64,000 nt of DNA from contig CACYQU010000004.1 in the NCBI GenBank assembly GCA_902776615.1, positions 1,139-65,138 of the forward strand, read 5' to 3'. Both the position numbers and the translations under genes were made by a program. Positions 34,262-63,987 of this stretch are shown in pieces; position 1 is the first letter of the stretch; every line of letters begins with the position of its first letter. The notes under the pieces are model-generated. The model did no database searches. It was not told the DNA's origin and saw only the letters and a list, made by a program, of their open reading frames with translations. The stretch is from an uncultured bacterium (GTDB taxonomy: Bacteria > Verrucomicrobiota > Kiritimatiellia > RFP12 > UBA1067).

Positions 34262-34338
34262 TGGTGGGCTATAGTGGATTCGAACCACTGACCTCTTCCA
34301 TGTCAAGGAAGCGCTCTAACCAACTGAGCTAATAGCCC
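34262..34338 (-). tRNA. tRNA-Val (anticodon GAC), with an encoded CCA.
   Basis: The transcript strand reads GGGCTATTAGCTCAGTTGGTTAGAGCGCTTCCTTGACATGGAAGAGGTCAGTGGTTCGAATCCACTATAGCCCACCA. The cloverleaf is canonical, with anticodon loop TTGACAT. Confidence 0.9.
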
Positions 34339-34351
34339 GTAAAAGTGAATG

Positions 34352-34366
34352 ATAGTATATCACATT
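34352..34366 (-). promoter_or_regulatory. Extended -10 TGTGATATACT, about 17 nt upstream of the tRNA-Val 5' end.
   Basis: The minus strand reads AAATGTGATATACTATCATTCACTTTTAC-GGGCTATT. Confidence 0.45.
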
Positions 34367-34631
34367 TGCCGACGGCCCGTCAAGGGGGGTAGAGCATTTT
34401 TTTGCAACCCAACTGCATTTCCACAAGCAAACCCGTTTTTAGCGCCAGTTTATTCGACATAATGAGTGCCTTTGACCGATAGAAACCGGTCGCTTGACCG
34501 GGAGAGCGCACGTCTCCTGGTCTGGGACACTCCCCGGTAGTTTCCCGTGCCGCCGCATTTCTGCGCCACCGCATGCGATGGCGATTGCGCACTTATTGCA
34601 ATAATCGTTCCAGACTTTCGCGGATTTGCAT

Positions 34632-34752
34632 CCCCTTAAGGGTGGCTTTTGTTTACCCTAAGGGTGAGAGCACTTCCCCCTTAGGGTTTCTTTAACTCCC
34701 CCTTAGGGTGAGGTCGCCTCACCCTTAGGGGTTCCGACACTTACCCTTAGGG
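34632..34752. repeat. Array of six CCCTTAGGG-type 9-bp quasi-palindromic boxes (one is CCCTAAGGG, one is CCCTTAAGGG), spaced 22 bp centre to centre and separated by 13-bp unique spacers.
   Basis: Read directly from the sequence, with box centres at about 34637, 34660, 34682, 34704, 34726 and 34748. Confidence 0.7.
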
Positions 34753-34839
34753 GGAAATCACACATGCCGCCATACGAATCTGCCATGGGGTCCATGGCCG
34801 ACTCGCCAGTCGCAACCGCCCTACTGGGAGAGCGCATAA

Positions 34840-34865
34840 CTGGGAGAGCGCAACCGCTCTCCCAG
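34840..34865 (-). terminator. Perfect 11-bp-stem hairpin (CTGGGAGAGCG-caac-CGCTCTCCCAG) about 50 nt downstream of the activase stop, a possible terminator with no U-tract.
   Basis: Read directly from the sequence. A third copy of CTGGGAGAGCGC lies 16 nt before it (34824-34835), which allows an alternative pairing. Confidence 0.3.
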
Positions 34866-34916
34866 TTGGGGGCTCTCACGGGTGTGTGCTGCCGTTGGGG
34901 CTGAGTCCATAGATGA

Positions 34917-35609
34917 CTAAGGCAGGGGCGGGGCAGTGAGGCTGAATGTTCTGCCGAGCATTGAATATTTCGCAGGGGCGGCCGTGTTGTAGGGCAAAAA
35001 CTCTATCGGAGCGCCAGCGGCGAAGGCGTTGAATGCGGTGCGGTCTTGCGGAGAATCGTTCACGCCAGGTATGCACGGCACACGGAAGACGAAAGGCACG
35101 CCCGCGCCGCGGAGCCATGCGATATTCTCCATGACTTGCGCAAGGCTCCCGCCCGTCCAGCGAGAGAACGCCGCAGGATCGAGCAGCTTCAAATCCTGAT
35201 AGACGAAGTCCATGAGCGAGACGACGCGCCTGTAGTCGGCGGCGCTCGCCGCGCCGCTCGTTTCGAGCGCAACCGAAACGCCCTTCTCCTTGAGGCGCAC
35301 TGCAAGCGCAGAGACAAAATCGGCCTGCGCGAGCGGTTCGCCGCCGGAAAATGTCACGCCGCCGCCGGACTGCGCCATTATGTCGGCGTTGACGAGCAGC
35401 TCCTCGGCGAGCGCGTCCACGCTCCAGTCGCGTCCGCAGACGACCCTTTCGCCGCTCTGCAGGACCATCGTCTCGATCTCGTGCGACTGGCCTTCGGGGT
35501 TGTGGCACCATGCGCAACGCAGCGGACAGCCCTTGAAGAACACTGTAGTCCGCACGCCCGGTCCGTCGTGCAGGGTGAATTCCCGAACTTCGAACGTTCG
35601 GCCCGTCAA
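34917..35609 (-). CDS. Glycyl-radical-enzyme activating protein (PFL-AE-family radical SAM enzyme). A TTG start at 35609 is assumed, overlapping the GRE stop as TTGA; the longest ORF would run to 35888.
   Basis: Radical-SAM cluster motif GPGVRTTVFFKGCPLRCAWCHNPEG, followed by the PFL-AE-like core. Confidence 0.85.
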   Translation of the reverse strand: MTGRTFEVREFTLHDGPGVRTTVFFKGCPLRCAWCHNPEGQSHEIETMVLQSGERVVCGRDWSVDALAEELLVNADIMAQSGGGVTFSGGEPLAQADFVSALAVRLKEKGVSVALETSGAASAADYRRVVSLMDFVYQDLKLLDPAAFSRWTGGSLAQVMENIAWLRGAGVPFVFRVPCIPGVNDSPQDRTAFNAFAAGAPIEFLPYNTAAPAKYSMLGRTFSLTAPPLP

Positions 35610-37681
35610 GATGCCGCCAGCTCCACACGCTTGATTATCTGGTCTTGGTACGGCTTGTCCAGCTCGATGAAATAGCCGCTCCATCCCCATACCCGAACGA
35701 TCAGATGGCGATGGCGTTCGGGGTGTTTCTGCGCGTCGAGCAGAGTGTCGCGATTGATCGTGTTGATCTGCATTTGGTGTCCGCCGCGGTCGATAAAGAA
35801 CTTTACGAGATGCGCCACCTTCTCTACGCCGTCGGGCATGGCGAACGCGGAATCGTGTATTTCGATCGTAAGAGGGCCGCCGTTGCACACCGGACCGAGA
35901 TTCGGCTCGGTGAAAGACCGGACGACCGAGATCGGGCCTTTCACGGGCACATCAAGCGACGGCGCGTAGTTCGCCGAGAACGGTTCGCCAGAGAGACGCC
36001 CGTCGGCGGATGCAGGCACATCCCGCGTGTGCCATATGTAATACATCGCACTACCCGTTCCGGGACGGAATATCCCGCCGCGATCGTTGCGGCGTCCGTC
36101 GAAGGCGTGGCCCCAGAAATCAATGAGCCACTTGGCGATTTCGTCCGCGCGCGGATCGGCGTTGCCCATCTTCGGCGCAGCCTTGGCGGCGGCACGGATG
36201 TCGTCCCGTCCGGCGAAGTCGGTGTCGAGAAGTTTGACAAGCTCTGCGAGAGTAAGAAGGCGCTTCTCGAACACCAACTCGCGTACTGATGCCAGCGAAT
36301 CGACGGCGACAGCGATTCCGGTTCCGTGGATTCCGAAGTTGTTGTATTTCGCGCCCTTCGAGATGTCGCGGGCCTTTTCTATGCAACCGGTGGAGATCAC
36401 CGATACGAATGGTCCCGGCAGAATCTCTACGTGGGAATATTTCCCGACAAGCGCGTCCGCGCGGCGCTGGACTTCGGCCTTGAACTCAGCCTTCACATCC
36501 TCGAAAGAGACGCCTTCCGCCGGAGCGAGGCGCCTCAGCGACGCGTCCAGCGCGCCGACGAAACTGACGGCGTCGATGTTGTTTATGTCCATTCCGCAAC
36601 CAGGCACGAGGAATTCCCAGCACGCGGCCACGGAATAGTCGCGCGCGTCCTCCGTCGCGTAGCCCCAGCGTTCTAGCGCGGGAATGACTACATCGTCGTT
36701 CGCATACTGCGGAAAGCCCAGCCCCTTCGCCGTAAGTTCGGTGCCAAGTTCGTATATTTCGATTGGCGTGGACTTGTCGACGCGAAGGTTGATCTTGGGA
36801 TCGACAAGCTTCAGTTCTCCGCACGCCTTGAGGCACAGGCGCGAGAGGTCGTTGAAAGCGGGCGCGCCGTCACGCGTAACGCCGCCAAGCATGACCGACT
36901 GTCCGTTGTCGCCCTGCTGAACGCCGATGTAAAGGTCGCTGTCGCGGTTGCAGGCGATGAAAAACTCTTCGAGCTCTTCAAGCGCGCCGTCCGCGGTGAG
37001 CCGTCCGGCGTCGAGGTCGGCCTTGTAATAGGGATAAAGGTACTGGTCGATGCGTCCGAGACCGCAGTGATACTCCCCTTCGCACCACATCGCATAGTGG
37101 AGAATCCTCAGCGACTGCAGCGCTTCGTGGAAGGTCCGCGCGCCTTTGAGCGGCACGTGCGCGAGCGTCGCGGCAATCTCGCAAAACCCGCGCGCCTCGG
37201 CCGCCTTGCGATAGCGCTCCGCAAGATCGAGCACGGCGCGAACCGAGAGCGCCGCGTTTTCTAGAAACTCCACGCCCTCGGCGTCGCCTTCGGCGCGACA
37301 CTTCCCAAGGCGCGCCGATATTTCGTCGAGCCGCGCGCCGAGTCCGTCGCGAATCGTCGGGCCGAAATCGGCCGTCAGGTTGAAGACGACCCCCTTCTCG
37401 CCAAACGCGGTTCCGGACGCGCGTCGCGCGTCCATCTCGGCATCGGTATGGAGATCGGGAATCTGGCGGACGGTCCGGAGGAACGCCAGGCGTTCGCCGT
37501 CCATGAACTCAGGGCGCTCCTCACGCAGCATTTCCTCAAGTCCAACACGCGCACGCACGACATCGCCTGTACCTTCGGCGACGAAACGCGCCAACAGCGG
37601 TTTCCAGTCCACATCGCGGCGGAACTTCGCCTGTTCGCGATCGAATGTTCTGTCAAGGAGGGACTTAATCCTCTCGGTCAT
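35606..37681 (-). CDS. Glycyl-radical enzyme of the PFL superfamily, compact at about 692 aa and of unknown substrate specificity.
   Basis: The C-terminal Gly-radical motif region is IVRVWGWSGYFIELDK, about 25 aa from the C-terminus. The mid-protein Cys-loop region is RDYSVAACWEFLVPGCGM. The PFL-like N-terminal helical and barrel regions are present, and the cognate activase is coupled immediately downstream. Confidence 0.88.
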   Translation of the reverse strand: MTERIKSLLDRTFDREQAKFRRDVDWKPLLARFVAEGTGDVVRARVGLEEMLREERPEFMDGERLAFLRTVRQIPDLHTDAEMDARRASGTAFGEKGVVFNLTADFGPTIRDGLGARLDEISARLGKCRAEGDAEGVEFLENAALSVRAVLDLAERYRKAAEARGFCEIAATLAHVPLKGARTFHEALQSLRILHYAMWCEGEYHCGLGRIDQYLYPYYKADLDAGRLTADGALEELEEFFIACNRDSDLYIGVQQGDNGQSVMLGGVTRDGAPAFNDLSRLCLKACGELKLVDPKINLRVDKSTPIEIYELGTELTAKGLGFPQYANDDVVIPALERWGYATEDARDYSVAACWEFLVPGCGMDINNIDAVSFVGALDASLRRLAPAEGVSFEDVKAEFKAEVQRRADALVGKYSHVEILPGPFVSVISTGCIEKARDISKGAKYNNFGIHGTGIAVAVDSLASVRELVFEKRLLTLAELVKLLDTDFAGRDDIRAAAKAAPKMGNADPRADEIAKWLIDFWGHAFDGRRNDRGGIFRPGTGSAMYYIWHTRDVPASADGRLSGEPFSANYAPSLDVPVKGPISVVRSFTEPNLGPVCNGGPLTIEIHDSAFAMPDGVEKVAHLVKFFIDRGGHQMQINTINRDTLLDAQKHPERHRHLIVRVWGWSGYFIELDKPYQDQIIKRVELAAS

Positions 37682-37717
37682 CTCGCACCAACCTTTCTCT
37701 AATCGCAACCGCCAACC

Positions 37718-37787
37718 ACTAACAACTAACAACTAACCACTAACGACTAACAACTAACCGCTAACCACTAACAACTAACCACTAATC
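37718..37787. repeat. Heptanucleotide microsatellite: ten tandem CTAACNN/ACTAACN units (GTTAGNN on the coding strand). It spans the MFS stop codon and the MFS-GRE intergenic region.
   Basis: Read directly from the sequence: actaaca actaaca actaacc actaacg actaaca actaacc gctaacc actaaca actaacc actaatc. Confidence 0.75.
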
Positions 37788-39145
37788 CCCAGTCTCGCCT
37801 CGATATCCTCAATCGTACCGCCCTTGGTCTCAGGCATGAAGAATACGGCCCAAACAAGCTGAACGGCCATCATGAACGCGAAGAACGCGAACGCCCACGT
37901 ACCTGCGCTCTCGGCCACGACAGGGAATGCCCATGAAATCACCGTGCACATGAACCAGTGGGTGAAGCAACCGAGGGCCTGTCCCTTCGCCCTTACGACA
38001 TTCGGGAATACTTCGGAGATGTAAACCCATATCACCGCACCGGACGATACCGCGAAGAACGCTATGAAGCCGAGAATGCCTGCCATGGCGATCGCGGCGT
38101 TCGGATGCGGCAGCGAGAGCTGCCACGCAACGAGCGCATGCATGACGATCATGAGAGAGGCGCCGCAGATGATGAGAGCGCGGCGTCCGAACCGGTCGAT
38201 GAAGAAGAACGCGAGAATCGTGAACGTGAGGTTCACCACGCCGACGCCTATCGTGCCCGCGAGCGCGGCGAGTTCGCTTCCCTCGCCGAAGATGAGCTGG
38301 AAGATGCGCGGCGCATAGTAGTTGATGGCGTTTATGCCCGACACCTGATTGAAGAACGCTATCAAAAACGCCAGCATGATCGGCTTGGCGTAGCGCCGCT
38401 GGAAGAGCGCGACCTTCACGCCATTGGCTGCGGCGCGCAGGGATTCCGCAATCTCGGCAAGGGTCTTCTCGATTTCGGGATAGCCGATGCGCTCAAGAAC
38501 GCCGCGCGCGGCGTTCGCGCGATTCGCCCTCACAAGCCAGCGCGGAGATTCGGGAATCGTCGCGAGAAGCGCCATGAAAAGCGCAATCGGCACGCACTCC
38601 ATGCCAAGCATCACGCGCCACACAAGCTTGGGGTCGGCATTCGGCATGAACCGCGCCACGAGATAGTTTGAGATGTACGAGACCAGAATGCCGAACACGA
38701 TGTTGAGCTGATTCATCGCCACGAGCCGACCCCTGTATCTGCCGGGCGATACCTCGACAATGTAGAGCGGCACGACAACCGAAACGCCGCCTATAGCGAG
38801 CCCGCCGATGAAGCGGAACCATCCAAGCAAATGCGGCCCGAAAACCGGGCTGTGCGGAGTGAACGCGCAGCCCACTGCGGAGACGAGGAAGAGAACCGCC
38901 ATCAGCCACAGCGTCGGTTTGCGTCCCCACTTGTCGGACGGCGCGCCGGCGGTGAAAACGCCGATCACGGTTCCGATAAGCGCACCGGAGACGATAAGTC
39001 CGTGCCAAAACGCCGAAAGCGAAAACTCCGACTGGATGGCTTTTTCGCATCCGGAGATGACCCCCGAATCGAAACCGAAGAGGAATCCGCCCAAAGCGGC
39101 TACAACAACTATGTAAAAAAGAGACTTGTTCATTCGCTTAACCAA
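37775..39145 (-). CDS. MFS sugar porter (sugar:H+ symporter family), 12 transmembrane segments.
   Basis: Motifs GFLFGFDSGVISG, DKWGRKPT (the GRK motif) and IPESPRWL (the PESPR motif). At 456 aa. Confidence 0.9.
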   Translation of the reverse strand: MVKRMNKSLFYIVVVAALGGFLFGFDSGVISGCEKAIQSEFSLSAFWHGLIVSGALIGTVIGVFTAGAPSDKWGRKPTLWLMAVLFLVSAVGCAFTPHSPVFGPHLLGWFRFIGGLAIGGVSVVVPLYIVEVSPGRYRGRLVAMNQLNIVFGILVSYISNYLVARFMPNADPKLVWRVMLGMECVPIALFMALLATIPESPRWLVRANRANAARGVLERIGYPEIEKTLAEIAESLRAAANGVKVALFQRRYAKPIMLAFLIAFFNQVSGINAINYYAPRIFQLIFGEGSELAALAGTIGVGVVNLTFTILAFFFIDRFGRRALIICGASLMIVMHALVAWQLSLPHPNAAIAMAGILGFIAFFAVSSGAVIWVYISEVFPNVVRAKGQALGCFTHWFMCTVISWAFPVVAESAGTWAFAFFAFMMAVQLVWAVFFMPETKGGTIEDIEARLGISG

Positions 39146-39191
39146 ACATCATAGCATTTTCCGGGCGGATATTGCGTATCTCCGTATTTGA

Positions 39192-42100
39192 TTACCTGAC
39201 GATGATCATCATGCCAGGAGGCTCCGGCGCCCACTCAAGCTTGATGGTCTTGCCGACGAAATTTGTCTCGCTGTAGTCGAATTCCCTTCCGCTTTGGAAC
39301 GAACCCATCTTCTCCCAGTTGCCGTTCTCAAGCTCATAATAAAGGCGATAGCCAGCAACATCTTTGAGGTTTCCTTTGACGTCCTTGACCTTCGTCGCGG
39401 TGAACATCCAGCTTCCCTCGACCTTGTACGCGCCAGTCGCCTCGGCAAGCTCCTCCGCATCGCCCGCAACATCGGCGTACTTCGTCGTCACCAGTACGTT
39501 CGTCACGCCCAGCTCGCCGAAGTAGCGCGCGCTATCGACATTGCGGTTGCGGACGAGTTCCTCCTGCGTGAGAATGCGGTCGTAGAAGCGGAAGTCCTTC
39601 ACGGTGCCGACAAGGTAGCTGTCGGCTCCGCCGCCCCAGCCGCCGAGGGCCAGCTTGCCGACGTGGGCATCGGCCATCGACGACCGCTCCAGATATCCGT
39701 CCGCGATGGTTCCTCCGGTCGGCGGCTCGGTCCCCGTGAACACGGTCGCAGTGCGCTCGGCGTCGTCCAGCATCGTCGTCACGTAGGTGAAGCGCTCGGC
39801 ATCCGCGTTGGCGACATGTGGCATGTCATTGTGCGAATTAAGCCCCTGCGTGTGGAACCAGACTGTCTTGGGATTGGAGGTGCCGCAGATAACCAGCGCC
39901 ATTTTGCTCCAAGCGGAGGAATAGACGTAGTTCTCGCCATTGCCCGCCTTGTTATCGTCATAGAGGGCGTCCAGAACGGTCTGCTCCGTATAGGTCCGGT
40001 TCCAGACGTTCGATACCGCCGTCATGAACTTGCTCTTGCCGCCGAAGGCATAGCCGTCCGACGCCCAGGCGCTGTCGTCGTCACCCTTGGTGAGGCTCAT
40101 GTTGTAGTAGTCTCCGCCCGAACCGACGTTGACCCACTTCGAGGCGGTCGTGCTGTGCGCCACGCCGACGCCGGCGTTGAGAAGGCCGTCGTAGTGGAGG
40201 CGGAGCCCGGCGGGCGAGTAGTCGTCGAAGCCGTAGTCCGAGGCGGTGCGAAGGCCGCGCACGGGACGCCAGCGCCATGTGAGGCGGACGGCGCCTGCGG
40301 AGGTGGAGTAGGCGTAGGAGCAGGAATCGTAGGAGACGGGATTCGTCCACTCCGCACCGCTCCGCTGCTCAAGGATGTAGCCGTCGCAGACGTAGGTGAT
40401 GCCATTCGTGGCCGTCACGCTCTCCGGCGCGACGAAGGTGTAGGAGCCGACGACCTCGTAGCCGCCGCACTTGTCGTAGCCTTCGATGTAGGAGTAGGTC
40501 GATTGGACAATGACGTTCGGTTCGGCGTAGCGCCCGAAGTACCGGTATTCGTCGACCTTGCGGTTCTTAGCGACCTCGGCGTCGGTGAGCGCGCGGTTGT
40601 AGAGGCGAAAATCGTGGAGCGTCCCGTTAAAGCTCTGGAGGTTGGCGGCGTCCCCGGAGCGTCCGTGGAAGCCTCCGACGCTGAACCAGGTCACGTTGGT
40701 CGCCGGGGAGTCACCATCGATGGCCGGGGCGTCGGTGCCGCCGGCTGCCGGCCGCGCGGTGCCGCCGAAGATGTAGGTGGTCTTGGTGTCGTCATAATCG
40801 GCGATCACGGTCACGTAGGACGGCCTTGCGCCCGCCGGGTAGAAGTTGGGGCGCGCGTCCGGGTGGACGGTCGAGTTCACATAGTAAACGCTGTTGGCGT
40901 TGCCGTTCGCGGCGCTGTTGTTCGACTTGCGCATCGCAACGCTGCCATAGCTCCATCCGTGCTGGCCCGTCCAAAGGTAGGCGGGGTCGCCAAGCTGGTC
41001 GGCAATGGCACCCGTCACCGAAATCTGCACCGTGAAATTGGCGGGGACAGCAAACGGATCGCCATCGTTCCACTTGGCGAAATAGGACTTGCCGTTGAAG
41101 GCGAAGCCGTTCTCCGCCCACTCGCCCTGCGCGGCGCTGTTGCGGGCCCATGCGTAATTGCCGGCGGTATTTTCGAGATAGGAGCACCGGTCCATCGGCC
41201 AGCGGGCCGCGTAGCCGGGCGCGATGTTCTTCCACTGCATGGCGGCGGAGTCGTGCGCCGCGTCCGCGCCGACGTTGCGGATGCCGTCGTAGTGCAGGAG
41301 AAGACCGTCGGTCACATAGTCGTCCAGACCGTAGATCGCAAGCGAGCCTTCGCCAGGGACGGTGGAGTATTGCCAGGTGATGCGGACCTTCCCGGAAGAC
41401 GTCGCGGTGCAGGACGATTCGCCGTCGTGCGAAACGGGTTCTCCCCAATCGGAGTCGTTCCAGGTTTCCAGCGTGTAGCCGGAAAGGACGTGGCGCTTGC
41501 CGTTCACGGTGCGCTGCGCAGGGGCGGTAAACGTGAAACCCTCTGCGTCAAGCGCGTAGGCGCCGCACGGCTGATCGCCCTCGGCGCCGGGCGCGCTCGT
41601 GGCGACGACCACGTTCGTCATGGGAATCGGCGCGGAGGCGCGGAAAAAGCGCCATTCGTCGATCACGCGGTTCCACGCGAGGTCTTCCCCAGAGAGCGCC
41701 TTGGAGTAGTAGCGGATGGCGTGGAGTGTGCCGTTGAATGACTGGAGGGAGTTGCTGGCTTTTCTCGTGCGCGGCGGGTTGTCGTATTGAGAGCCGATCG
41801 CGAACCAGGGGTTGACGTCCTCCGCCGTCCTCGAACCGGCCTTGTAGGAGTTGCCGCCGGTCGAAGCCGTCGGAATCTCCGTTCCCTCGAAGACCCGGAT
41901 GGCTACCGTATCGGAGAGGATGGTCGCGTAGCGGGGATTGGCGTTCGAAAAGTTGGGGCGCGGCGTGTTGGCGCCGAAGCGGGTCCTGTCGATGGCGTAG
42001 ACGGCGTTCGCGGGCGTGGTGGAGCCGTTTGAGCCGTTTTCGGACTGGCGGATGGCGACGGCCCCGTATTCCCAGCCCTTCCCGGGCCGGAAGATGTAGC

Positions 42101-42578
42101 CCGTCGTGCCGTTCTCGTCCTTGAGGTCGGCGGTCGAAGCCGTCATCGCGAACTGGAGCGTGTAGGCGGGCCCCATGCTGAATGAGACCTTCGTCGCGGC
42201 AAAGCCCTCAAGCCCGTCAAAGGCGAAGCCGTTCGCGGTCCACGCGCCGTTCGCGGTGTTGCCGTCTTCGCGGGCGTACGAGTCGGCGGTCCCCTGCTTG
42301 ACCCAGCTGTACCATACGAGCGGACACTCGCCGTCCGAGGCCAGGTTCGCCCAGGTGACGGCCGCGTCGGAATGCGCGGCGTCCGCGCCGACGTTGCGGA
42401 TGCCGTCGTAGTGGAGGACAAGTCCGTCCTGGACGTAGTCGCCGACATCGTATGCCTTGAAGTCGGGGTTGTCCCAATACTTCACTCCCGCATATGCTGC
42501 GGAGGCGAATGAACAGGCCAGCGCAGCGACCGAAAGACGCGCGCCGGAGGCGAGAAGCTTTCCAGATATGCTTTTCAT
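39192..42578 (-). CDS. Large secreted protein (~1128 aa) built from three ~330-aa repeats, each containing a LamG/ConA-like lectin domain and a beta-sandwich domain. The start is at MKSISGKL..., which carries the signal peptide.
   Basis: Signal peptide MKSISGKLLASGARLSVAALACSFASAAYA. The repeats start YDVGDYVQDGLVLHYDGIRNVGADAAH, YGLDDYVTDGLLLHYDGIRNVGADAAH and YGFDDYSPAGLRLHYDGLLNAGVGVAH. The LamG_3 C-terminal strands are FNGTLHAIRYYSKALSGEDLAWN, FNGTLHDFRLYNRALTDAEVAKN and GTVKDFRFYDRILTQEELVRN. Its own -10 box and an AAGGAAGGA ribosome-binding site are present. Confidence 0.85.
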   Translation of the reverse strand: MKSISGKLLASGARLSVAALACSFASAAYAGVKYWDNPDFKAYDVGDYVQDGLVLHYDGIRNVGADAAHSDAAVTWANLASDGECPLVWYSWVKQGTADSYAREDGNTANGAWTANGFAFDGLEGFAATKVSFSMGPAYTLQFAMTASTADLKDENGTTGYIFRPGKGWEYGAVAIRQSENGSNGSTTPANAVYAIDRTRFGANTPRPNFSNANPRYATILSDTVAIRVFEGTEIPTASTGGNSYKAGSRTAEDVNPWFAIGSQYDNPPRTRKASNSLQSFNGTLHAIRYYSKALSGEDLAWNRVIDEWRFFRASAPIPMTNVVVATSAPGAEGDQPCGAYALDAEGFTFTAPAQRTVNGKRHVLSGYTLETWNDSDWGEPVSHDGESSCTATSSGKVRITWQYSTVPGEGSLAIYGLDDYVTDGLLLHYDGIRNVGADAAHDSAAMQWKNIAPGYAARWPMDRCSYLENTAGNYAWARNSAAQGEWAENGFAFNGKSYFAKWNDGDPFAVPANFTVQISVTGAIADQLGDPAYLWTGQHGWSYGSVAMRKSNNSAANGNANSVYYVNSTVHPDARPNFYPAGARPSYVTVIADYDDTKTTYIFGGTARPAAGGTDAPAIDGDSPATNVTWFSVGGFHGRSGDAANLQSFNGTLHDFRLYNRALTDAEVAKNRKVDEYRYFGRYAEPNVIVQSTYSYIEGYDKCGGYEVVGSYTFVAPESVTATNGITYVCDGYILEQRSGAEWTNPVSYDSCSYAYSTSAGAVRLTWRWRPVRGLRTASDYGFDDYSPAGLRLHYDGLLNAGVGVAHSTTASKWVNVGSGGDYYNMSLTKGDDDSAWASDGYAFGGKSKFMTAVSNVWNRTYTEQTVLDALYDDNKAGNGENYVYSSAWSKMALVICGTSNPKTVWFHTQGLNSHNDMPHVANADAERFTYVTTMLDDAERTATVFTGTEPPTGGTIADGYLERSSMADAHVGKLALGGWGGGADSYLVGTVKDFRFYDRILTQEELVRNRNVDSARYFGELGVTNVLVTTKYADVAGDAEELAEATGAYKVEGSWMFTATKVKDVKGNLKDVAGYRLYYELENGNWEKMGSFQSGREFDYSETNFVGKTIKLEWAPEPPGMMIIVR

Positions 42579-42603
42579 TTTGGCAGTTCCTTCCTTTGTG
42601 CCT

Positions 42604-42616
42604 ATATTATACCATA
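42604..42616 (-). promoter_or_regulatory. Extended -10 TGGTATAAT, about 30 nt upstream of the LamG-protein ATG and followed by a ribosome-binding site AAGGAAGGA.
   Basis: The minus strand reads TTTATGGTATAATATAGGCACAAAGGAAGGAACTGCCAAAATG. Confidence 0.45.
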
Positions 42617-42704
42617 AACTTACTTCCAATATTCGCGAATAGTCGTTATTTGGACTTACGCCCGATGGCCGCCACAGCCCACCCATTGATATCGCGACGA
42701 GAAT

Positions 42705-42714
42705 AATGTATAAT
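42705..42714 (+). promoter_or_regulatory. Extended -10 TGTATAAT, about 30 nt upstream of rph and divergent from the LamG promoter.
   Basis: The plus strand reads GAATAATGTATAATCTCTCCCGC...ATG. Confidence 0.4.
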
Positions 42715-42743
42715 CTCTCCCGCAAAGCAAAGGTCAACAAGAT

Positions 42744-43460
42744 ATGAAAACCATAAAGCAGAAAGCGCAAAGCCGCAAAAGCAACCAGCTTCGTCCAATC
42801 GAGTTCGTCCGCAATTTCACAAAGCATGCCGCGGGGAGCGTGCTTGTCAAATGGGGCGACACGTGGGTTCTCTGTACGGCAAGCGTGGAAGACAAGGTGC
42901 CTCCCTTCTTGAAGGATACAGGGAAAGGCTGGATAACTGCGGAATACTCGATGCTGCCATCATCCACCTGTGGCGGACGCAAAGATCGCGACATCAAGAA
43001 GCTGAAACAAGATGCGCGCTCCACGGAGATCCAGCGCCTTATCGGACGCTCCCTGCGAGCGGCGGTCGATATGTCAAAGCTTGGCGAACGCCAGATTACA
43101 ATCGACTGCGACGTGCTTCAAGCCGACGGCGGAACACGCTGCGCTTCGATAACAGGCGGAATGGTCGCCCTGCAAGACGCCATCGACAAACTGGTCGCAA
43201 GCGGAGTGCTGCACGAAAGTCCAATTGTCCATCGTGTCGCCGCAGTGTCTGTCGGCGTATGCGACGGCAAGCCGACGCTCGATCTCGATTACGCCCACGA
43301 TTCCACTGCAGAGGTCGATTTGAACGTCGTCATGACAGACGATGGGCGATACGTTGAACTTCAGGGCACGGCGGAGCACAAGCCTTTCACGGAGGAATCG
43401 CTTGACGCCCTGCGCACTTTGGCCCGCAACGGGCTCAAAAAGATATTCGCCCTCATGTAG
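42744..43460 (+). CDS. rph: Ribonuclease PH
   Basis: RNase PH family motifs ...RPIEF..., [42 protein letters not shown] and [22 protein letters not shown]. At 238 aa. Confidence 0.95.
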
Positions 43461-43479
43461 AGGGGCGACTGTCGCCGCA

Positions 43480-45579
43480 TCAGCAATCGACGCATGGAGC
43501 CGCAGCGGCGGCAGGCGCCACGACCGCACGGTCGTCGTCGAATCCAAGCCGCCACGTGTTGTCGCGGATGTCGTTGAGGCATGGTTTGAGCCCCGCGCCA
43601 TCGATTGGCGAGAGTTTTATCAAGTGCGTCGCATGGCCGGGAACCGAAACTTCGTAGCGTCCTTCCGCCACGCCTTCGTCGGCCTGGCGCCAGAGATCGC
43701 GAACCTTCCATTCCCCTTTCATGCCCAAACGGGAGAAGTCCACGGTTATTTTGCGCTCCTCGATATCGGCGTTGAGAAGCGCAAACGCCATAGTGCCATC
43801 AGCCAGCGGACGCGCCCACACTTCGGTAGACGCAGGTTTGTCCTCCAGAACGAGCGCAGCCGCCGCGCCGAGTCCATCCTGATCAATGGCGAGAACTTCA
43901 TCGTTCGTCAGGAGCGAAAGCGTGAATTCGTCCATAAGCGACAAGTCGCATCCTATCATGAGCGGCGAGGCGAACATGCACCACATGGAGATGTGGGTGT
44001 AGCATTCGTTCTGTGTGAGGCGTCCCTTGGACCACACCGTGCGCCCGACGACAAGCATGTCGGCGTCGTTCCATGCGCCGGGTCCGGAATACATCCAGTG
44101 CGGCGCCTGCGAGCGAATGCCTGTTCCATATACGCTCGGCCAAGTGTCGAACACATCGCCTGTAGTGCGCCAGCACTGTCCGCCGGACTGTTCGCCCCAA
44201 GTCGGGACGTTCTCGTTGCCGTACTGGCAAAGCGAAAACACGATATCGCGCGGCTGCATCTTGAGGAAGCGGCCCATCAGGAAGTACGGGCGCGTATGAT
44301 ATTCGCGTCCTGAACCTGTTGCGACCGCGCCGTAGCTGCACCAGTCGTACTTGAGATAATCGTAGCCCCATTCGGCGTAGCTTTTCGCGTCCTGGAGTTC
44401 ATGCAGCCAACTACCCGTGCAGCCTCCGCAAGTATACGGGCCGGGCGAAGAATAAAGGCCAGCCTTGAAGCCCTTGGAATGTATGTAGTCGGCCAGAGCC
44501 TTCATATCGGGGAAGCGGGCGTTCGGCGCTATAGTACCGTCGGGATTGCGCTCCGGCCCCGCAAGCGTCGGGTCGCTCTTTCCGTTTTCGGGGTTCTTCT
44601 GCCAGAAGTCGTCGATGTTCACATACGCCCAGCCGTGCTCGTCGAGGCCGAGCTCGACCATCTTGTCGACAGCCGTCTTCATCTTGTCGGCGCTAACGCT
44701 TCCTGCGAAAGCGTTCCAACTGTTCCAACCCATAGGCGGCGTAAGGGCGATCTTGTCGCCGATAACGAACGCTACCGTCTTCTCGTCCCTTCCGGCGGAG
44801 TTCGAGGCAGTGAATCTTATGCGATATTCGCCCGGCTTTTCGATTGCGCCGGAGAGAATTCGCGTGGCGGGGTCGAAGTTGAGCGCGGAGGCGCCGCTTC
44901 CTATCGCAAGCGCGTCACACGCCGCAGTCGCGGCGATCGGCTTTGCGCCGGAAACGGGCAGTTTGAAAAGTATCGGACGCCCCGGCCTCGCGCCGTAACG
45001 GACTGGCGCATTGATCTTGGGCACGGCAGACGGTTTCGGCGTCAGTATGCCAAGCTGGCGCGTAAGCGAACCCGACGGAAGCGGCCCGGCGCCGTCCCTG
45101 AAAACAAAGAAAGCGTCCGCCCAGTCGGCGTGGTCGAAGTAATTGCCGTCGCCTCCCTCGGTCACTTCAAGCGTCGCGATTTTCGCGCCAGAGAGGTCGG
45201 CCTTCAGCGGAACGCTTCTGCCGCGCTCGCTCTTCGCCTCGGCTACGAGACGTCCGTCGGCGTATATGCGAAACGCCACCGCCCCTTTGCCGTCCGTTTC
45301 GTCGTCAACGCCGACCTTCGCCTCAAACGAAAGCGCGGCGCCTCCAAGCGCCACCTTGTACACGCTTGGCGCATGAGTGCCGACGCCTCGCGCGAATTCC
45401 TCACCGCCGACCCGCAGAGCATTGCCGCCGATCGATTTGCGGGCGGCAGGCTTTCCCCAGCCACAGGACATGAGGTCGATTTCGGTCTCGTCAAGCCAGT
45501 GCTTCTCGGCACCGGCCGCACAAGCAGCCGACAGCACGGTGACTGCGAGTGCAATATGCGCGTATTTCATAAGGGGCAC
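43480..45579 (-). CDS. Secreted GH27-family alpha-galactosidase / alpha-N-acetylgalactosaminidase with an N-terminal NPCBM-like module and an Ig-like domain.
   Basis: Signal peptide MPLMKYAHIALAVTVLSAACAAGA. The NPCBM-like block is ...FDHADWADAFFV. The GH27 catalytic motifs are PPMGWNSWNAF and YLKYDWCSY. Confidence 0.85.
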   Translation of the reverse strand: MPLMKYAHIALAVTVLSAACAAGAEKHWLDETEIDLMSCGWGKPAARKSIGGNALRVGGEEFARGVGTHAPSVYKVALGGAALSFEAKVGVDDETDGKGAVAFRIYADGRLVAEAKSERGRSVPLKADLSGAKIATLEVTEGGDGNYFDHADWADAFFVFRDGAGPLPSGSLTRQLGILTPKPSAVPKINAPVRYGARPGRPILFKLPVSGAKPIAATAACDALAIGSGASALNFDPATRILSGAIEKPGEYRIRFTASNSAGRDEKTVAFVIGDKIALTPPMGWNSWNAFAGSVSADKMKTAVDKMVELGLDEHGWAYVNIDDFWQKNPENGKSDPTLAGPERNPDGTIAPNARFPDMKALADYIHSKGFKAGLYSSPGPYTCGGCTGSWLHELQDAKSYAEWGYDYLKYDWCSYGAVATGSGREYHTRPYFLMGRFLKMQPRDIVFSLCQYGNENVPTWGEQSGGQCWRTTGDVFDTWPSVYGTGIRSQAPHWMYSGPGAWNDADMLVVGRTVWSKGRLTQNECYTHISMWCMFASPLMIGCDLSLMDEFTLSLLTNDEVLAIDQDGLGAAAALVLEDKPASTEVWARPLADGTMAFALLNADIEERKITVDFSRLGMKGEWKVRDLWRQADEGVAEGRYEVSVPGHATHLIKLSPIDGAGLKPCLNDIRDNTWRLGFDDDRAVVAPAAAAAPCVDC

Positions 45580-60974: not shown

Positions 60975-61754
60975 TCACTCCCATACAAGATCCGTCGCGC
61001 GGAAGACGGGCCCTTCCACGCAGCAACGCGAATTGCCGCGCACAGTCTTCTGAATACACGCATAGCACGCGCCGACGCCGCATATCATGTGGCGGTCCAT
61101 GGAGATCCAACCCTTTGCGCCGGTGCCGTTCGCGCGCATTGCCACGGCCTTGAGCATCGGGTCGGGGCCGCACGCGAAGAGCTCGAACTTGCGGCCATCC
61201 GCCCTCAGCCGCGCCAGCTCGTCGTCGAGAGGATCCGTGACGAGCCCCTTCACTCCCGCGCTGCCGTCGTCAGTCGCGAGGCGCACGTCCACGCCGAGCG
61301 CACGCAATTCGTCGACCGCAAGGAGGTCGTTCGAGGTGCGCCCTCCGATGAACGCGATTACGTTGTCGTGGCCCGAAGCCTTCAGCGAACGGGCGAGAAA
61401 ATGCAAAGGCGCTACGCCGTAGCCTCCACCCACGAGAAGCGCCGCGCCGTCGCACTCCACCGGGAAGCCGCGCCCCAACGGACCGAGCACGCCAACTTCG
61501 TCGCCCGGCTTCACGCCGTTCAGGGCCAAAGTGCCGCGCCCGACGGTTTTGTAAAGAACCGTCACGCGGCCTTCCGCCGCGTCGAACACGCTGAACGGAC
61601 GTCTCAGAGCGCTCGGTTCGAGCGACGGAACGCGCACGTGCACGAACTGCCCCGGCGCGAGCGCGGCGGAGAGTTCCGGCGCTTCAAACACGAGCCGCCT
61701 GTATCCCGCGCCGATTTCGTCGTGCGCGAGCGTCTTCGCAACCGCGTCGAACAT
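60975..61754 (-). CDS. pyrK: Dihydroorotate dehydrogenase electron-transfer subunit (FAD/NAD-binding plus [2Fe-2S] cluster).
   Basis: The FNR-like fold is followed by the C-terminal cluster motif CGVGACYACIQKTVRGNSRCCVEGPVF. Confidence 0.9.
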   Translation of the reverse strand: MFDAVAKTLAHDEIGAGYRRLVFEAPELSAALAPGQFVHVRVPSLEPSALRRPFSVFDAAEGRVTVLYKTVGRGTLALNGVKPGDEVGVLGPLGRGFPVECDGAALLVGGGYGVAPLHFLARSLKASGHDNVIAFIGGRTSNDLLAVDELRALGVDVRLATDDGSAGVKGLVTDPLDDELARLRADGRKFELFACGPDPMLKAVAMRANGTGAKGWISMDRHMICGVGACYACIQKTVRGNSRCCVEGPVFRATDLVWE

Positions 61755-61755
61755 G

Positions 61756-62733
61756 TCAGTCGGCCACCTTCTTCACGACGCTCGTGCAGGCTTTGAGCAC
61801 GCCCGCGACATCCGCCAGATTGGAGGGAATGATCATGGTGTTGTTGGTCTTGGCGAGATTGCCGAACTGCGCGAGGTACTGCTGGGCGAGCTGCATGTTC
61901 ACCGACTCCACGCCGCCCTTTCCATTGATGGCCGCGGCGACCTTGGAAATCCCCTCGGCCTGCGCCTCGGCGACGAGAAGTATCTCCTTCGCGCGGCCCT
62001 CGGCCTCGTTGATGCGCCGCGCGCGTTCGCCCTCGGAAAGCGCGATCGCCTGCTGGCGCTCGCCCTCGGCGCGGTTGATCTTCGACTGGCGCTCGCCTTC
62101 GGACTCGGCGATCATCGCGCGCTTTTCGCGCTCGGCGCGCATCTGCTTCTCCATCGCATCGCGGATGCTCTGGGGCGGCGTGATGTTCTTGATCTCGTAG
62201 CGCGTAACCTTGATTCCCCAGGGGTCGCTAGCCTTGTCGACGGCGGCGACTATCGCCGCGTTGATCGACGTGCGCTCCTCGAAGCTGCGGTCGAGATCGA
62301 GCTTGCCCATTTCGGAACGCATCGTGGTCTGCGCGAGCTGCGTGGTCGCGAAAAGGTAGTTGCCGATTCCGTAACTGGCCTTCGCCGCGTCCATGACCTG
62401 CATGTAGAGGATGCCGTCCACGCTTACGGCGATGTTGTCCTTCGTGATGCACTCCTGCGGCGGAACGTCGATCGCCTGCTCCTTGAGGGTGTGCTTGTAG
62501 GCGATGCGGTCGAGGAACGGAATGAGTATGTGGAACCCGGCGTCAAGCGTGCAGCGGTAGCGTCCGAGGCGCTCCACTATGTACGCGGCCTTTTGCGGCA
62601 CTATCACCGCCGTCTTCATTATCGCCGTGAGGACGAGTACCGCCACTATGCCGAAAAATACGAGACCTCCGCTTATCATTGCTTTTCCTTTCTTTGCCTG
62701 TTTTTGGCTTTGCGAGTTCGCGCCGTGCCTCAC
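61756..62733 (-). CDS. SPFH/band-7 (stomatin/HflK/C-like) membrane protein. A GTG start overlaps the asd stop as GTGA; the alternative ATG is at 62679.
   Basis: An N-terminal TM helix ISGGLVFFGIVAVLVLTAIM is followed by the SPFH domain and a C-terminal Glu/Arg-rich coiled coil EREKRAMIAESEGERQSKINRAEGERQ. Confidence 0.85.
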   Translation of the reverse strand: MRHGANSQSQKQAKKGKAMISGGLVFFGIVAVLVLTAIMKTAVIVPQKAAYIVERLGRYRCTLDAGFHILIPFLDRIAYKHTLKEQAIDVPPQECITKDNIAVSVDGILYMQVMDAAKASYGIGNYLFATTQLAQTTMRSEMGKLDLDRSFEERTSINAAIVAAVDKASDPWGIKVTRYEIKNITPPQSIRDAMEKQMRAEREKRAMIAESEGERQSKINRAEGERQQAIALSEGERARRINEAEGRAKEILLVAEAQAEGISKVAAAINGKGGVESVNMQLAQQYLAQFGNLAKTNNTMIIPSNLADVAGVLKACTSVVKKVAD

Positions 62734-63740: not shown

Positions 63741-63746
63741 GGTGGT

Positions 63747-63759
63747 TTATTATACCATA
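63747..63759 (-). promoter_or_regulatory. Extended -10 TGGTATAAT ending 8 nt before the asd ATG, implying a leaderless mRNA.
   Basis: The minus strand reads GAAATATGGTATAATaaaccaccATG, the same geometry as at icd. Confidence 0.5.
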
Positions 63760-63795
63760 TTTCACCGCACCTGGGAGAGCAGGAGTCTCGCCCGC

Positions 63796-63987
63796 TCAGA
63801 TGGAAAATGCGAAACCATCCTTATTCTCGTGAGACTCCCCGTTGTTCGAGGCTGATTGTGACATAGGGATGTTCGGGGAAACCGTATTCCTCTTCAGGAG
63901 CGATGTATGTGACGCTGGTGGCTGTGCGTGGCATTTCATAAGGTATATCCCCATGGAAGACTCCATTTTCGGAGAAAAACCCGACAT
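63796..63987 (-). CDS. Small ORF (63 aa) of uncertain reality, lying in the 250-bp region upstream of asd.
   Basis: It is ATG-initiated and bounded by an upstream in-frame stop. GC3 is lower than in neighbouring genes and no motif was recognised. Confidence 0.2.
   Translation of the reverse strand: MSGFSPKMESSMGIYLMKCHAQPPASHTSLLKRNTVSPNIPMSQSASNNGESHENKDGFAFSI

What the first reader, a model, noticed from the sequence alone, without database searches (positions are those of the whole stretch)
37718..37787. Ten-copy heptanucleotide microsatellite (CTAACNN)n spanning the MFS stop codon and the MFS-GRE intergenic spacer
About ten perfect or near-perfect tandem 7-mers (ACTAACA x4, ACTAACC x3, ACTAACG, GCTAACC, ACTAATC) occupy 70 of the 93 nt between the sugar-porter stop (TAG at 37775) and the glycyl-radical-enzyme start (37681). 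On the mRNA they read (GUUAGNN)n, so there is a UUAG every 7 nt, and the stop codon of the MFS gene is itself one of the units. Heptamer tracts are classic slipped-strand substrates. Copy-number change would alter the spacing between the two cistrons in 7-nt steps without changing frame, and could shorten or extend the MFS C-terminus by moving the first in-frame TAG. The tract could equally be a multivalent binding platform for an RNA-binding protein that controls GRE translation.
Basis: seen in the sequence. Interest (0 to 1): 0.65.

Follow-up and report, generated by a model that had tools for sequence, protein, structure and literature searches.

The report
Stop-codon-anchored heptamer repeat spacer
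A ten-unit 7-base tandem repeat fills the gap between a sugar-transporter gene and a glycyl-radical-enzyme gene in a rumen/gut Kiritimatiellae genome; it grew by slippage out of the transporter's own last codons and stop codon, and it is one more example of a known, poorly understood class of bacterial heptamer repeats, not a dedicated regulatory device.

Summary
Ten head-to-tail heptamers lie at 37718-37787 and read (GGUUAGU)n on the minus-strand mRNA. The MFS stop codon is the TAG of the first full unit. The tract is unique in the window and far beyond chance.

Copy number differs between close strains: 9, 6 and 5 GTTAG units, giving spacers of 93, 72 and 65 nt. Four independent assemblies of the same strain carry the identical 93-nt allele. 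The MFS stop and the 36 nt before the GRE start never change.

In other Kiritimatiellae the same MFS-GRE and GRE-activase junctions carry unrelated 7- or 8-nt arrays. Each starts at the upstream stop codon and is built from that gene's last codons, so the unit sequence is locally seeded.

A scan of GTDB genomes found (GTTAGNN)>=4 arrays in many phyla. None lies inside an ORF. Sixty-four sit within 30 nt after a stop with the G-rich strand as sense, against 9 in the opposite sense.

This matches published heptamer repeat classes (LSSR/STRR, TAACTGA, GGGNATC).

No Rfam family, promoter, terminator, stable RNA fold or HutP/TRAP-like gene was found.

Verdict: a slippage-born, near-neutral, structure-free and C-poor intercistronic spacer. 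It is a new member of a known kind.

The parts
37718..37787 (-). Heptamer array. It has ten units on the + strand (ACTAACN) and reads AUUAGU then (N-GUUAG-U) x9 on the mRNA. Only 2 of 72 bases are C.
37775..37777 (-). TAG stop codon of the MFS gene. It is the TAG of the first full GGTTAG unit and is the same in all three strain alleles.
37682..37717 (-). 36-nt leader GGTTGGCGGTTGCGATTAGAGAAAGGTTGGTGCGAG. It consists of decayed repeat units followed by the probable GRE ribosome-binding region. It is invariant between strains whose GRE genes differ at 4-12% of DNA positions.
37775..39133 (-). MFS sugar-porter gene (452 aa). Its last codons ATT AGT GGT plus TAG form the proto-repeat TTAGTGG|TTAG.
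35606..37681 (-). Short glycyl radical enzyme (691 aa; PFL-like plus Gly_radical domains). It scores below every NCBIfam equivalog cutoff.
34917..35609 (-). GRE-activating radical-SAM enzyme (230 aa). Its start overlaps the GRE stop by 4 nt, so this junction has no array in this genome.
39192..42578 (-). First gene of the apparent operon (1128 aa as called on L001, with a weak Laminin_G_3 hit). The ORF could extend to 42827.
42710..42737 (-). Sigma-70-like promoter match upstream of the operon. This is a consensus match only.
34486..34501 (-). Terminator-like hairpin plus T-run, more than 400 nt downstream of the activase stop and just upstream of the tRNA gene's promoter-like site. This is a consensus match only. 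No such site lies in the MFS-GRE spacer.

Best explanation
The tract is a heptanucleotide long simple-sequence repeat.

Origin. The last codons and stop of the MFS gene (ATT AGT GGT TAG) already contain 1.6 copies of TTAGTGG. Replication slippage expanded this proto-repeat downstream, partly in 21-nt (three-unit) steps. The expansion built almost the whole 93-nt MFS-GRE spacer. The array still gains and loses whole units on the time-scale of strain divergence.

Why it is tolerated. The first unit carries the stop codon, so the MFS protein is unaffected. The 36-nt GRE leader lies outside the unstable part.

RNA properties. On the mRNA the array is a passive linker that is almost free of C and almost free of structure. 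It has a UAG in every reading frame. It therefore separates MFS termination from GRE initiation by a variable distance. It forms no specific structure and offers no C-rich Rho-loading site.

Shown versus inferred. Shown: the repeat, its local seeding, the unit-wise polymorphism, the invariant stop and leader, the absence of stable structure, and membership of a widespread class of stop-anchored arrays with the G-rich strand as sense. Inferred: slippage as the mutational process, near-neutrality, and any effect on the GRE:MFS expression ratio.
For: The repeat is real and unique in the window.

Alleles with 9, 6 and 5 units have identical flanks. The same 93-nt allele appears in four independent assemblies of one strain.

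The unit equals the codons for I-S-G plus TAG. Relatives that end GGC TAA, GGG TAA or GGG TAG have no array. A second species with GGT TAG (L007) again has a TGGTTAG array at the MFS stop.

At least ten further stop-anchored arrays were found, and their units derive from the local last codons. At GRE ends reading RVEL* the units are GAGTTGG, TAGGGGT/TAGTGGT, ATTGTGAG, GTTAGGG and GTGAAATT. At other MFS ends they are GTTGAAAG and TCGAATAA. In L051, CTC CTC TAG gave CTCTAGNN.

The array's minimum free energy is -5.0 kcal/mol against a background of -21.0 +/- 5.6. It is the least structured of 403 sampled windows. The whole spacer folds with z = -0.38.

The spacer contains no promoter-like or terminator-like site. 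There is no Rfam hit.

Across phyla, none of 124 GTTAGNN arrays lies in an ORF. The median stop-to-array distance is 3 nt. The sense:antisense ratio is 64:9. Non-GTTAG skewed arrays give 31:4.

The literature describes the same kind of repeat and the same positional rule. Heptamers are the commonest long SSR class and are attributed to polymerase slippage (Mrazek 2007 as summarised in PMC4679880). GGGNATC repeats lie within 50 bp after stops on the coding strand (PMC4692102).
Against: Arrays are about 3-4 times more frequent at the two GRE-operon junctions than elsewhere in the same loci. They occur at 7 of 63 GRE 3' ends and at about 4 of 11 MFS-GRE junctions. Elsewhere there are about 14 arrays in 418 kb. 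This could mean selection for a spacer at these junctions.

The GTTAG core is intact in 19 of 20 units across alleles, even though third-codon positions differ by up to 30% between the strains. Concerted evolution by slippage can explain this, but so can constraint.

The strong strand polarity is only partly explained by neutral seeding.

No read-level or experimental data were available.
Confidence: 0.62

Rival explanations
1. A selected functional spacer. In this reading the array is kept because a long linker that is free of structure, poor in C (and so resistant to Rho) and rich in stop codons uncouples GRE translation from the weakly expressed membrane transporter. Unit number would tune the ratio of the two proteins.
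For: Arrays are enriched at GRE-operon junctions. Every long orthologous spacer is either a C-poor array or a strongly palindromic element. The alternative seen in other species is no spacer at all. The array is the least structured segment of the window and has 2 C in 72 nt. The G-rich strand is the sense strand across phyla.
Against: Several orthologues work with overlapping or adjacent genes (L004, L010, L055). A partition-function model shows no monotonic gain in RBS accessibility with unit number (0.24-0.45 unpaired). The natural allele is among the lowest at 0.24. The enrichment rests on small numbers and on crude gene calls.
Confidence: 0.2
2. A multivalent platform for an RNA-binding protein. 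Candidates are a HutP-like factor that reads NAG triplets with 4-nt spacers, or a general single-strand binder such as S1 or a cold-shock protein. The bound protein would control GRE translation or transcript elongation.
For: UAG recurs every 7 nt, nine to ten times. HutP reads XAG triplets separated by four spacer nucleotides (PMC2425495). MacGregor proposed S1, Csp or CsrA binding for TAACTGA heptamers (PMC4679880). The GTTAG core is well kept across units.
Against: Unit sequences at orthologous junctions are unrelated and are templated by local codons. There is no terminator for an antiterminator to act on. No HutP, TRAP or CsrA-type domain was found in any of the 40 window proteins scanned against Pfam, or in the activase, which was scanned against NCBIfam; three ORFs at 61087-63866 were not scanned. 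There is no Rfam family. In other phyla the arrays sit next to stops and a median of 140 nt from the next start.
Confidence: 0.08
3. A phase-variation (contingency) switch. Frequent unit gain and loss within a population would switch or grade expression of the transporter or the GRE.
For: Unit number differs between strains. Repeats in 5' untranslated regions do modulate expression in Moraxella UspA2 (summarised in PMC4679880).
Against: Unit changes alter neither reading frame nor the MFS stop. No promoter spacing is involved. The same 93-nt allele is found in four independent samples and assemblies of one strain, which argues against hypermutability. The genes are metabolic, not surface antigens. 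Rehm et al. reached the same conclusion for GGGNATC arrays.
Confidence: 0.05
4. A non-B nucleic-acid structure, namely a two-tetrad G-quadruplex in DNA or RNA formed from the GG doublets. It would act on transcription or translation, as proposed for GGGNATC heptamers.
For: GG doublets recur, and the 3' end reads GGTTGGCGGTTG...GGTTGG. Related arrays such as (GTTAGGG)n in L014 and L040 have G3-4 runs. Rehm et al. showed G4 formation for GGGNATC repeats.
Against: The window array has no GGG run. Half of its units carry a single G at the variable position. Arrays at orthologous sites include units that cannot form a G4 (GTTGAAAG, TCGAATAA).
Confidence: 0.03

Closest known systems
Long simple sequence repeats (LSSR) with 5-11 nt units, with heptamers dominant (Mrazek, Guo and Shah 2007, as summarised in PMC4679880 and PMC4692102)
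   Same: Head-to-tail 7-nt units far longer than chance. Intergenic location. A genome of fairly high G+C. Unit-wise length polymorphism. Slippage as the presumed origin.
   Different: The class was defined statistically across genomes. Here a single locus is traced to its seed, the gene's own last codons plus stop, in a phylum (Kiritimatiellota) that the papers I could search do not discuss.
GGGNATC / GGGGAYT heptamer repeats of Xanthomonas and Nostoc (Rehm et al. 2015, PMC4692102)
   Same: Heptamer arrays between co-oriented ORFs. The G-rich strand is on the coding strand within 50 bp after the stop, including overlap with the stop. The arrays are transcribed and are not linked to surface-antigen genes. 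Copy number is variable.
   Different: Those units have G3-4 runs and form G-quadruplexes, with four units preferred. The window's unit has no G3 run and nine to ten units. It also contains a stop codon.
TAACTGA direct repeats of marine Beggiatoaceae, cyanobacteria and Bacteroidetes (MacGregor 2015, PMC4679880)
   Same: An intergenic heptamer that contains stop codons, has a strong orientation bias, is predicted to be unstructured, has no known function, and is suspected to act in translation.
   Different: TAACTGA is a single sequence dispersed at about 170 sites per genome, mostly 2-6 copies directly upstream of start codons. Horizontal spread was proposed for it. Here the unit is locus-specific, locally derived and anchored at a stop.
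Cyanobacterial STRR heptamers (Calothrix PCC 7601; Mazel et al. 1990, cited in PMC4692102; details from my own knowledge)
   Same: Tandem heptanucleotides in intergenic and intercistronic regions of operons. In the present scan about 51 of 120 loci with (GTTAGNN)>=4 are cyanobacterial.
   Different: STRRs are a few fixed units present at about 100 copies per genome. I did not test whether GTTAGNN is one of the named STRR families.
HutP (NAG-N4) and TRAP ((G/U)AG-N2-3) RNA-binding sites
   Same: Periodic UAG triplets on single-stranded RNA. HutP's period of 7 nt matches.
   Different: There is no flanking terminator and no split into two sites of three triplets with a 12-17 nt linker. No hutP or mtrB gene was seen. 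TRAP spacing does not fit. Orthologous spacers lack the motif.

Membership tests
Heptameric long simple sequence repeat (LSSR / STRR-like intergenic array) | Head-to-tail units of 5-11 nt, longer than expected by chance | tested here: met
   10.3 copies, TRF score 102-123. Nine pattern hits against 0.03 expected.
Heptameric long simple sequence repeat (LSSR / STRR-like intergenic array) | Non-coding location, with a unit length that is not a multiple of three | tested here: met
   The tract lies in the 93-nt MFS-GRE spacer and overlaps only the last 13 nt of the MFS gene including the stop. None of 124 related arrays lies inside an ORF.
Heptameric long simple sequence repeat (LSSR / STRR-like intergenic array) | Length polymorphism in whole units between strains | tested here: met
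   9, 6 and 5 units give spacers of 93, 72 and 65 nt.
Heptameric long simple sequence repeat (LSSR / STRR-like intergenic array) | Positional rule of Rehm et al.: G-rich strand on the coding strand within 50 bp after a stop | tested here: met
   In the window the stop lies inside the array and the G-rich strand is the sense strand. For the class as a whole the sense:antisense counts are 64:9 and 31:4. The rule itself is quoted.
Phase-variable contingency locus | A unit change switches a reading frame or promoter spacing on or off | tested here: not met
   The stop is fixed in the first unit. The GRE frame is independent of the array. The spacer contains no promoter-like site.
Phase-variable contingency locus | Length heterogeneity within one clonal population | not testable with these tools
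   No reads were available. Four assemblies of the same strain share one allele.
HutP-type antitermination site | NAG triplets with 4-nt spacers | tested here: met
   UAG occurs every 7 nt, 9-10 times. The HutP motif is described in PMC2425495.
HutP-type antitermination site | Two sites of three triplets flanking a G+C-rich terminator stem, with a 12-17 nt linker | tested here: not met
   No terminator-like hairpin was found. The fold gives z = -0.38 and the MFE structure has an ensemble frequency of 0.0006.
HutP-type antitermination site | A cognate hutP gene in the genome | tested here: inconclusive
   No HutP domain was found in the 40 window proteins scanned against Pfam, or in the activase, which was scanned against NCBIfam only. 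Three ORFs at 61087-63866 were not scanned, and the rest of the genome was not available.
TRAP binding site | About 11 (G/U)AG triplets separated by 2-3 nt (from my own knowledge of the trp system) | tested here: not met
   The spacers are 4 nt throughout.
G-quadruplex-forming heptamer repeat (GGGNATC type) | Four or more runs of at least 3 G | tested here: not met
   The tract has no GGG run. It has only GG doublets in about half of the units.
Any curated RNA family (Rfam 15) | A match at the gathering score | tested here: not met
   Only two tRNAs were found in the window. A permissive scan of 37400-38100 returned nothing relevant.

The most novel reading that the evidence does not exclude
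Arrays of 7- or 8-nt units that start at a stop codon and carry the G-rich strand as sense may be more than slippage debris. They may be a general post-termination feature of bacterial operons. Two versions fit the data. In one they are selected as Rho-proof, structure-free spacers with stops in all frames. In the other they are produced by a transcription-linked expansion mechanism acting on ribosome-free G-rich RNA just after stops, for example through R-loops. Either version would explain why the arrays recur at the same junctions with different units. It would also explain the 7:1 or greater strand polarity seen across at least eight phyla.
Probability: 0.2. Interest if true: 0.6.

Novelty: new member of a known kind. 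Interest (0 to 1): 0.3.

Why it matters
For this locus the result mainly settles what the tract is. It is not a riboswitch, an attenuator or a phase switch. It is a young spacer that grew out of the transporter's own stop-codon region.

The wider comparison has modest general interest. First, it gives a clean example of how intercistronic spacers are born from terminal codons. Second, the same two operon junctions repeatedly acquire arrays with different units. Third, the published polarity rule (G-rich strand as sense, abutting the stop) holds for many unit types and many phyla.

If that polarity reflects selection or a transcription-coupled mutational mechanism, these arrays would be a natural system for studying what bacteria tolerate in the ribosome-free RNA just after a stop codon.

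Tried and rejected
The following checks were run and gave no support.

- **Rfam.** A gathering-threshold scan of the window and a permissive scan of 37400-38100 found no family.
- **Promoter and terminator scan of 34300-43500.** Nothing lies in the spacer, so an internal promoter or attenuator is unlikely.
- **RNA folding.** The spacer with flanks and the conserved 36-nt leader give z-scores between -0.67 and +0.52, so there is no defined structure.
- **RBS accessibility model.** A partition-function model with 0-15 synthetic units shows no monotonic trend. The natural allele is not favoured. This gives no support for a simple insulation or standby role.
- **Search for an RNA-binding regulator.** Pfam or NCBIfam scans of 41 window ORFs found no HutP, TRAP, CsrA or ANTAR-type protein. 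Three ORFs at 61087-63866 were not scanned.
- **Position-specific constraint within units.** Variation is concentrated at unit position 1. Only about four independent mutational events can be inferred, so the test has no power.
- **Mobile or horizontally spread heptamer.** Rejected for this lineage because the units are templated by local codons.
- **Assembly artefact.** Rejected because identical sequence occurs in independent assemblies and the tract is shorter than the assembly k-mers.
- **Literature.** Searches found no description of such arrays in Kiritimatiellota or Planctomycetota.

Full report
**1. Observation**

The + strand at 37718-37787 consists of ten head-to-tail heptamers: ACTAACA x4, ACTAACC x3, ACTAACG, GCTAACC and ACTAATC. 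TRF reports 37714-37785 with period 7, 10.3 copies and score 102. It also reports a 21-nt higher-order period with 92% matches and score 123. A three-unit pattern with up to two mismatches hits nine overlapping positions, all in this tract. Shuffles give 0.03 expected hits.

Both flanking genes are on the minus strand. A sugar-porter MFS gene (Sugar_tr, E 5e-104) ends ...CTG GGG ATT AGT GGT TAG, with the stop at 37777-37775. A 691-aa glycyl radical enzyme (PFL-like plus Gly_radical domains) starts at 37681. The mRNA therefore reads AUUAGU, then GGUUAGU UGUUAGU GGUUAGC GGUUAGU UGUUAGU CGUUAGU GGUUAGU UGUUAGU UGUUAGU. Decayed units GGUUGGC GGUUGCG AUUAGAG follow, and then AAAGGUUGGUGCGAG-AUG.

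One detail needs correcting. Thirteen nt of the tract belong to the MFS gene, so 57 of the 93 spacer nt are intact units.

**2. Context**

The closest named homologues of the GRE are from Kiritimatiellae MAGs. More than 6,900 homologues have E<1e-50, and most come from ENA and JGI metagenome assemblies.

The operon appears to be, in order: a 1128-aa protein with a weak Laminin_G_3 hit, the MFS gene, the GRE, and a radical-SAM activase whose start overlaps the GRE stop. The only promoter-like site lies upstream of the first gene. A terminator-like site lies well downstream of the activase, near the tRNA gene. The spacer contains neither.

The rest of the window is ordinary chromosome, including rpoB, rpoC and the S9 and L13 ribosomal protein genes. 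Forty-one of its ORFs were scanned against Pfam or NCBIfam, and none contains a HutP, TRAP, CsrA or similar domain. Three ORFs at 61087-63866 were not scanned.

**3. Strain comparison**

The exact GRE or MFS protein is found on contigs from three other samples or assemblies (L001, L002, L207). All carry the identical 93-nt spacer.

Two contigs whose GRE is 98% identical (L083, L084) have a 72-nt spacer with six GTTAG units. A contig whose GRE is 96% identical (L085; 88% DNA identity, 30% of third codon positions changed) has a 65-nt spacer with five units.

In all alleles the MFS stop is the TAG of the first full unit. The 36 nt before the GRE ATG are identical in all alleles, although the flanking codons show synonymous changes. 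So the array changes in whole units on the time-scale of strain divergence. It is stable within a strain. It cannot move the MFS stop, because any unit gain or loss happens downstream of the first in-frame TAG. The conserved 36-nt leader is best read as the GRE translation-initiation region. It has no significant predicted structure.

**4. Orthologous junctions in other species**

Eighty related loci were fetched with the GRE protein. Their MFS-GRE junctions are very variable:

- No spacer or overlapping genes: L004, L010, L055.
- (GTTGAAAG)x5: L006.
- (TCGAATAA)x9-11: L028, with a shorter relative in L035.
- Palindromic repeat elements: (ACAGGATTT)x3 plus an inverted copy in L003, L012 and L013; (GCGCAGAG)n plus inverted copies in L039 and L041.
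- Plain sequence: L076.

TRF over 86 loci (548 kb) then showed the same phenomenon at the GRE-activase junction:

- (GAGTTGG/TAGTTGG)x10 in L007.
- (TAGGGGT/TAGTGGT)x12.6 in L009.
- (ATTGTGAG)x8.5 in L010.
- (GTTAGGG) in L014 and L040.
- (GTGAAATT) in L042.
- (AGAGGAT) in L074.

In every case the array begins at or within a few nt of the upstream stop codon. Its unit is recognisably the last codons plus stop of that gene. GTG GAG TTG TAG/TGA (V-E-L-stop) seeds the GRE arrays. ATT AGT GGT TAG (I-S-G-stop) seeds the TTAGTGG array. CTC CTC TAG seeds CTCTAGNN in L051.

L007, a different species (GRE 85% identical), ends its MFS with the same GGT TAG and again has a TGGTTAG array there. Closer relatives that end GGC TAA, GGG TAA or GGG TAG have none. 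In four GRE-end arrays (L007, L014, L040, L074) the protein is lengthened by 4-5 array-encoded residues.

The units are therefore born locally. They are neither mobile nor a conserved motif.

Arrays occur at 7 of 63 GRE 3' ends and at about 4 of 11 MFS-GRE junctions. Elsewhere there are about 14 in 418 kb. This enrichment is suggestive, but it rests on small numbers and crude gene calls.

**5. Distribution beyond this lineage**

I scanned one genome per GTDB species for (GTTAGNN)x3-GTTAG. About 51 loci are cyanobacterial, mostly Nostocales and other filamentous forms. The rest come from Acidobacteriota, Planctomycetota, Bacteroidota, Clostridia, Kiritimatiellia, Verrucomicrobiota, Chloroflexota and others.

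Using a simple longest-ORF caller, I found the following for the 124 arrays:

- None lies inside an ORF of 90 aa or more.
- In 74 the gene on the 5' side of the GTTAG strand is co-oriented with it, against 37 opposite (p = 6e-4).
- The median stop-to-array distance is 3 nt.
- In 30 arrays the gene's stop lies inside the array.
- A stop lies within 30 nt in the sense orientation in 64 arrays, against 9 for the opposite strand (p = 2e-11).
- The distance to the next co-oriented start has a median of 140 nt.

An ORF-calling artefact would be symmetric, because CTAAC also places TAA in all three frames.

As an independent check I took all other G/C-skewed arrays in those loci whose period (5-12 nt) is not a multiple of three. 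They show the same rule, 31 against 4 (p = 3.5e-6). The Kiritimatiellae-type loci give 12 against 2.

Part of this bias is expected. Stop codons contain no C, and coding strands are purine-rich. I doubt that this accounts for a ratio of 7:1 or more, so I leave it as unexplained (note).

**6. What is known**

Heptamers are the most abundant class of long simple sequence repeats in genomes rich in 5-11-nt repeats. They have been attributed to polymerase slippage (Mrazek et al. 2007, as summarised in PMC4679880, and PMC4692102).

Rehm et al. described GGGNATC heptamers in Xanthomonas and Nostoc. These lie preferentially between co-oriented ORFs, within 50 bp after the stop on the coding strand, including overlaps with the stop. 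They are closer to the 5' neighbour whatever its orientation. That is the rule I find here.

MacGregor described intergenic TAACTGA heptamers with a strong orientation bias. She proposed S1, Csp or CsrA binding.

Calothrix STRR heptamers are older examples (cited).

None of these has an established function. My searches found no account of such arrays in Kiritimatiellota or Planctomycetota.

**7. Mechanism**

*Origin.* The evidence points strongly to expansion of a local proto-repeat, presumably by slippage. Supporting points are the unit-wise alleles, the 21-nt higher-order structure, the decay towards the 3' end, and the match between each unit and the codons that precede it.

*RNA properties.* The 72-nt array has 2 C and an MFE of -5.0 kcal/mol. 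The window background is -21.0 +/- 5.6, which makes the array the least structured of 403 sampled segments. Most sister arrays behave the same way. The spacer as a whole folds no better than shuffles, with z = -0.38 and an MFE structure frequency of 0.0006.

The tract also has a UAG in every frame. The most economical reading is a passive linker of variable length between MFS termination and GRE initiation. It is tolerated because it neither alters the MFS protein nor touches the conserved GRE leader. Being C-poor, it also does not create a Rho-loading site within the operon. That last point is inference and was not tested.

*Test of an active role.* A partition-function model of RBS accessibility with 0-15 units gave no trend, and the natural allele was not favoured. 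I therefore found no computational support for an active insulating or standby role.

**8. Rivals**

- **Selected spacer or tuning function.** This remains possible (about 0.2). The reasons are the junction enrichment, the finding that every long orthologous spacer is either a C-poor array or a palindromic element, and the strand polarity.
- **Sequence-specific RNA-binding-protein platform.** This is unlikely (about 0.08). UAG-N4 formally matches the HutP triplet spacing. However, there is no terminator, no two-site architecture and no hutP gene in the part of the window that was scanned. The motif is not conserved at orthologous junctions. TRAP spacing does not fit.
- **Phase-variation switch.** This is unlikely (about 0.05). 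No frame or promoter is affected, and one allele is shared by four samples.
- **G-quadruplex.** This is unlikely for this unit (about 0.03). It has no G3 runs, and sister arrays include units that cannot form a G4.

**9. Verdict**

The idea of a shifting C-terminus does not apply at this locus. The regulatory-platform idea is not supported.

The tract is a new member of a known kind, the intergenic heptameric long SSR, in a phylum where I could find no earlier description. Its interest as a single locus is low. The by-products may merit a proper genome-wide study. These are local seeding from terminal codons, recurrent birth at the same operon junctions, and a polarity rule that holds across many units and phyla.

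Noticed in passing
window 34630-34756: A cluster of about seven short palindromes (CCCTAAGGG, CCCTTAGGG, CCCTTAAGGG) spaced about 22 nt apart. TRF reports period 44 with 2.3 copies. A 15-nt pattern hits this region 8 times, against 0.74 expected for the whole window. The cluster lies between the activase stop and the tRNA gene at 34265-34338.
   Followed up: partly
window 34822-34865 (minus strand): A perfect 11-bp hairpin, CTGGGAGAGCG-gttg-CGCTCTCCCAG, lies about 50 nt downstream of the activase stop. A third direct copy of GCGCTCTCCCAG follows it. It may be the real operon terminator or a REP-like element.
   Followed up: no
window 35606-37681: The GRE is unusually short (691 aa) and scores below every NCBIfam equivalog cutoff. 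The best hit is TIGR01774 at 309 bits, against a cutoff of 678. The enzyme belongs to a large uncharacterised subfamily found mostly in metagenome assemblies and named Kiritimatiellae MAGs. It is regularly linked to a sugar-porter MFS gene and a large gene with a weak Laminin_G_3 hit.
   Followed up: partly
L003 ~165-340, L012 and L013 (MFS-GRE spacer); L039 and L041: In other species the same junction carries palindromic repeat elements built from short units. Examples are (ACAGGATTT)x3 plus an inverted copy, and (GCGCAGAG)n plus inverted copies. Both form long hairpins and resemble REP-like or MITE-like intergenic elements.
   Followed up: no
L007 2009-2061: This array is an exception to the polarity rule. 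(AACTACC)x7.6 is C-rich and G-poor on the sense strand. It lies between two co-oriented genes and ends 3 nt before the MFS start codon. The same 10-kb locus carries three other arrays.
   Followed up: partly
L018 4644-4674: The heptamer ACAATGC x4.4 appears to lie inside the GRE coding region of a relative whose GRE match spans 713 codons. I did not check whether it is an in-frame insertion or a frameshift.
   Followed up: no
L107 6109-6148 and many GTDB loci: The commonest unit among the cross-phylum GTTAGNN arrays is GTTAGGA (37 of 124). Read as UAGGAGU, it places a Shine-Dalgarno-like AGGAG directly after a UAG in every unit. The Kiritimatiellia MAG L107 has five such units starting at a gene's stop.
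   Followed up: no
L007, L017, L024, L027, L061, L077 (upstream of GRE): Where the GRE is not preceded by the MFS gene, it has its own conserved promoter-like element, GAAAAAGTTGACATGTCATTT ... TGGTATAAT.
   Followed up: no
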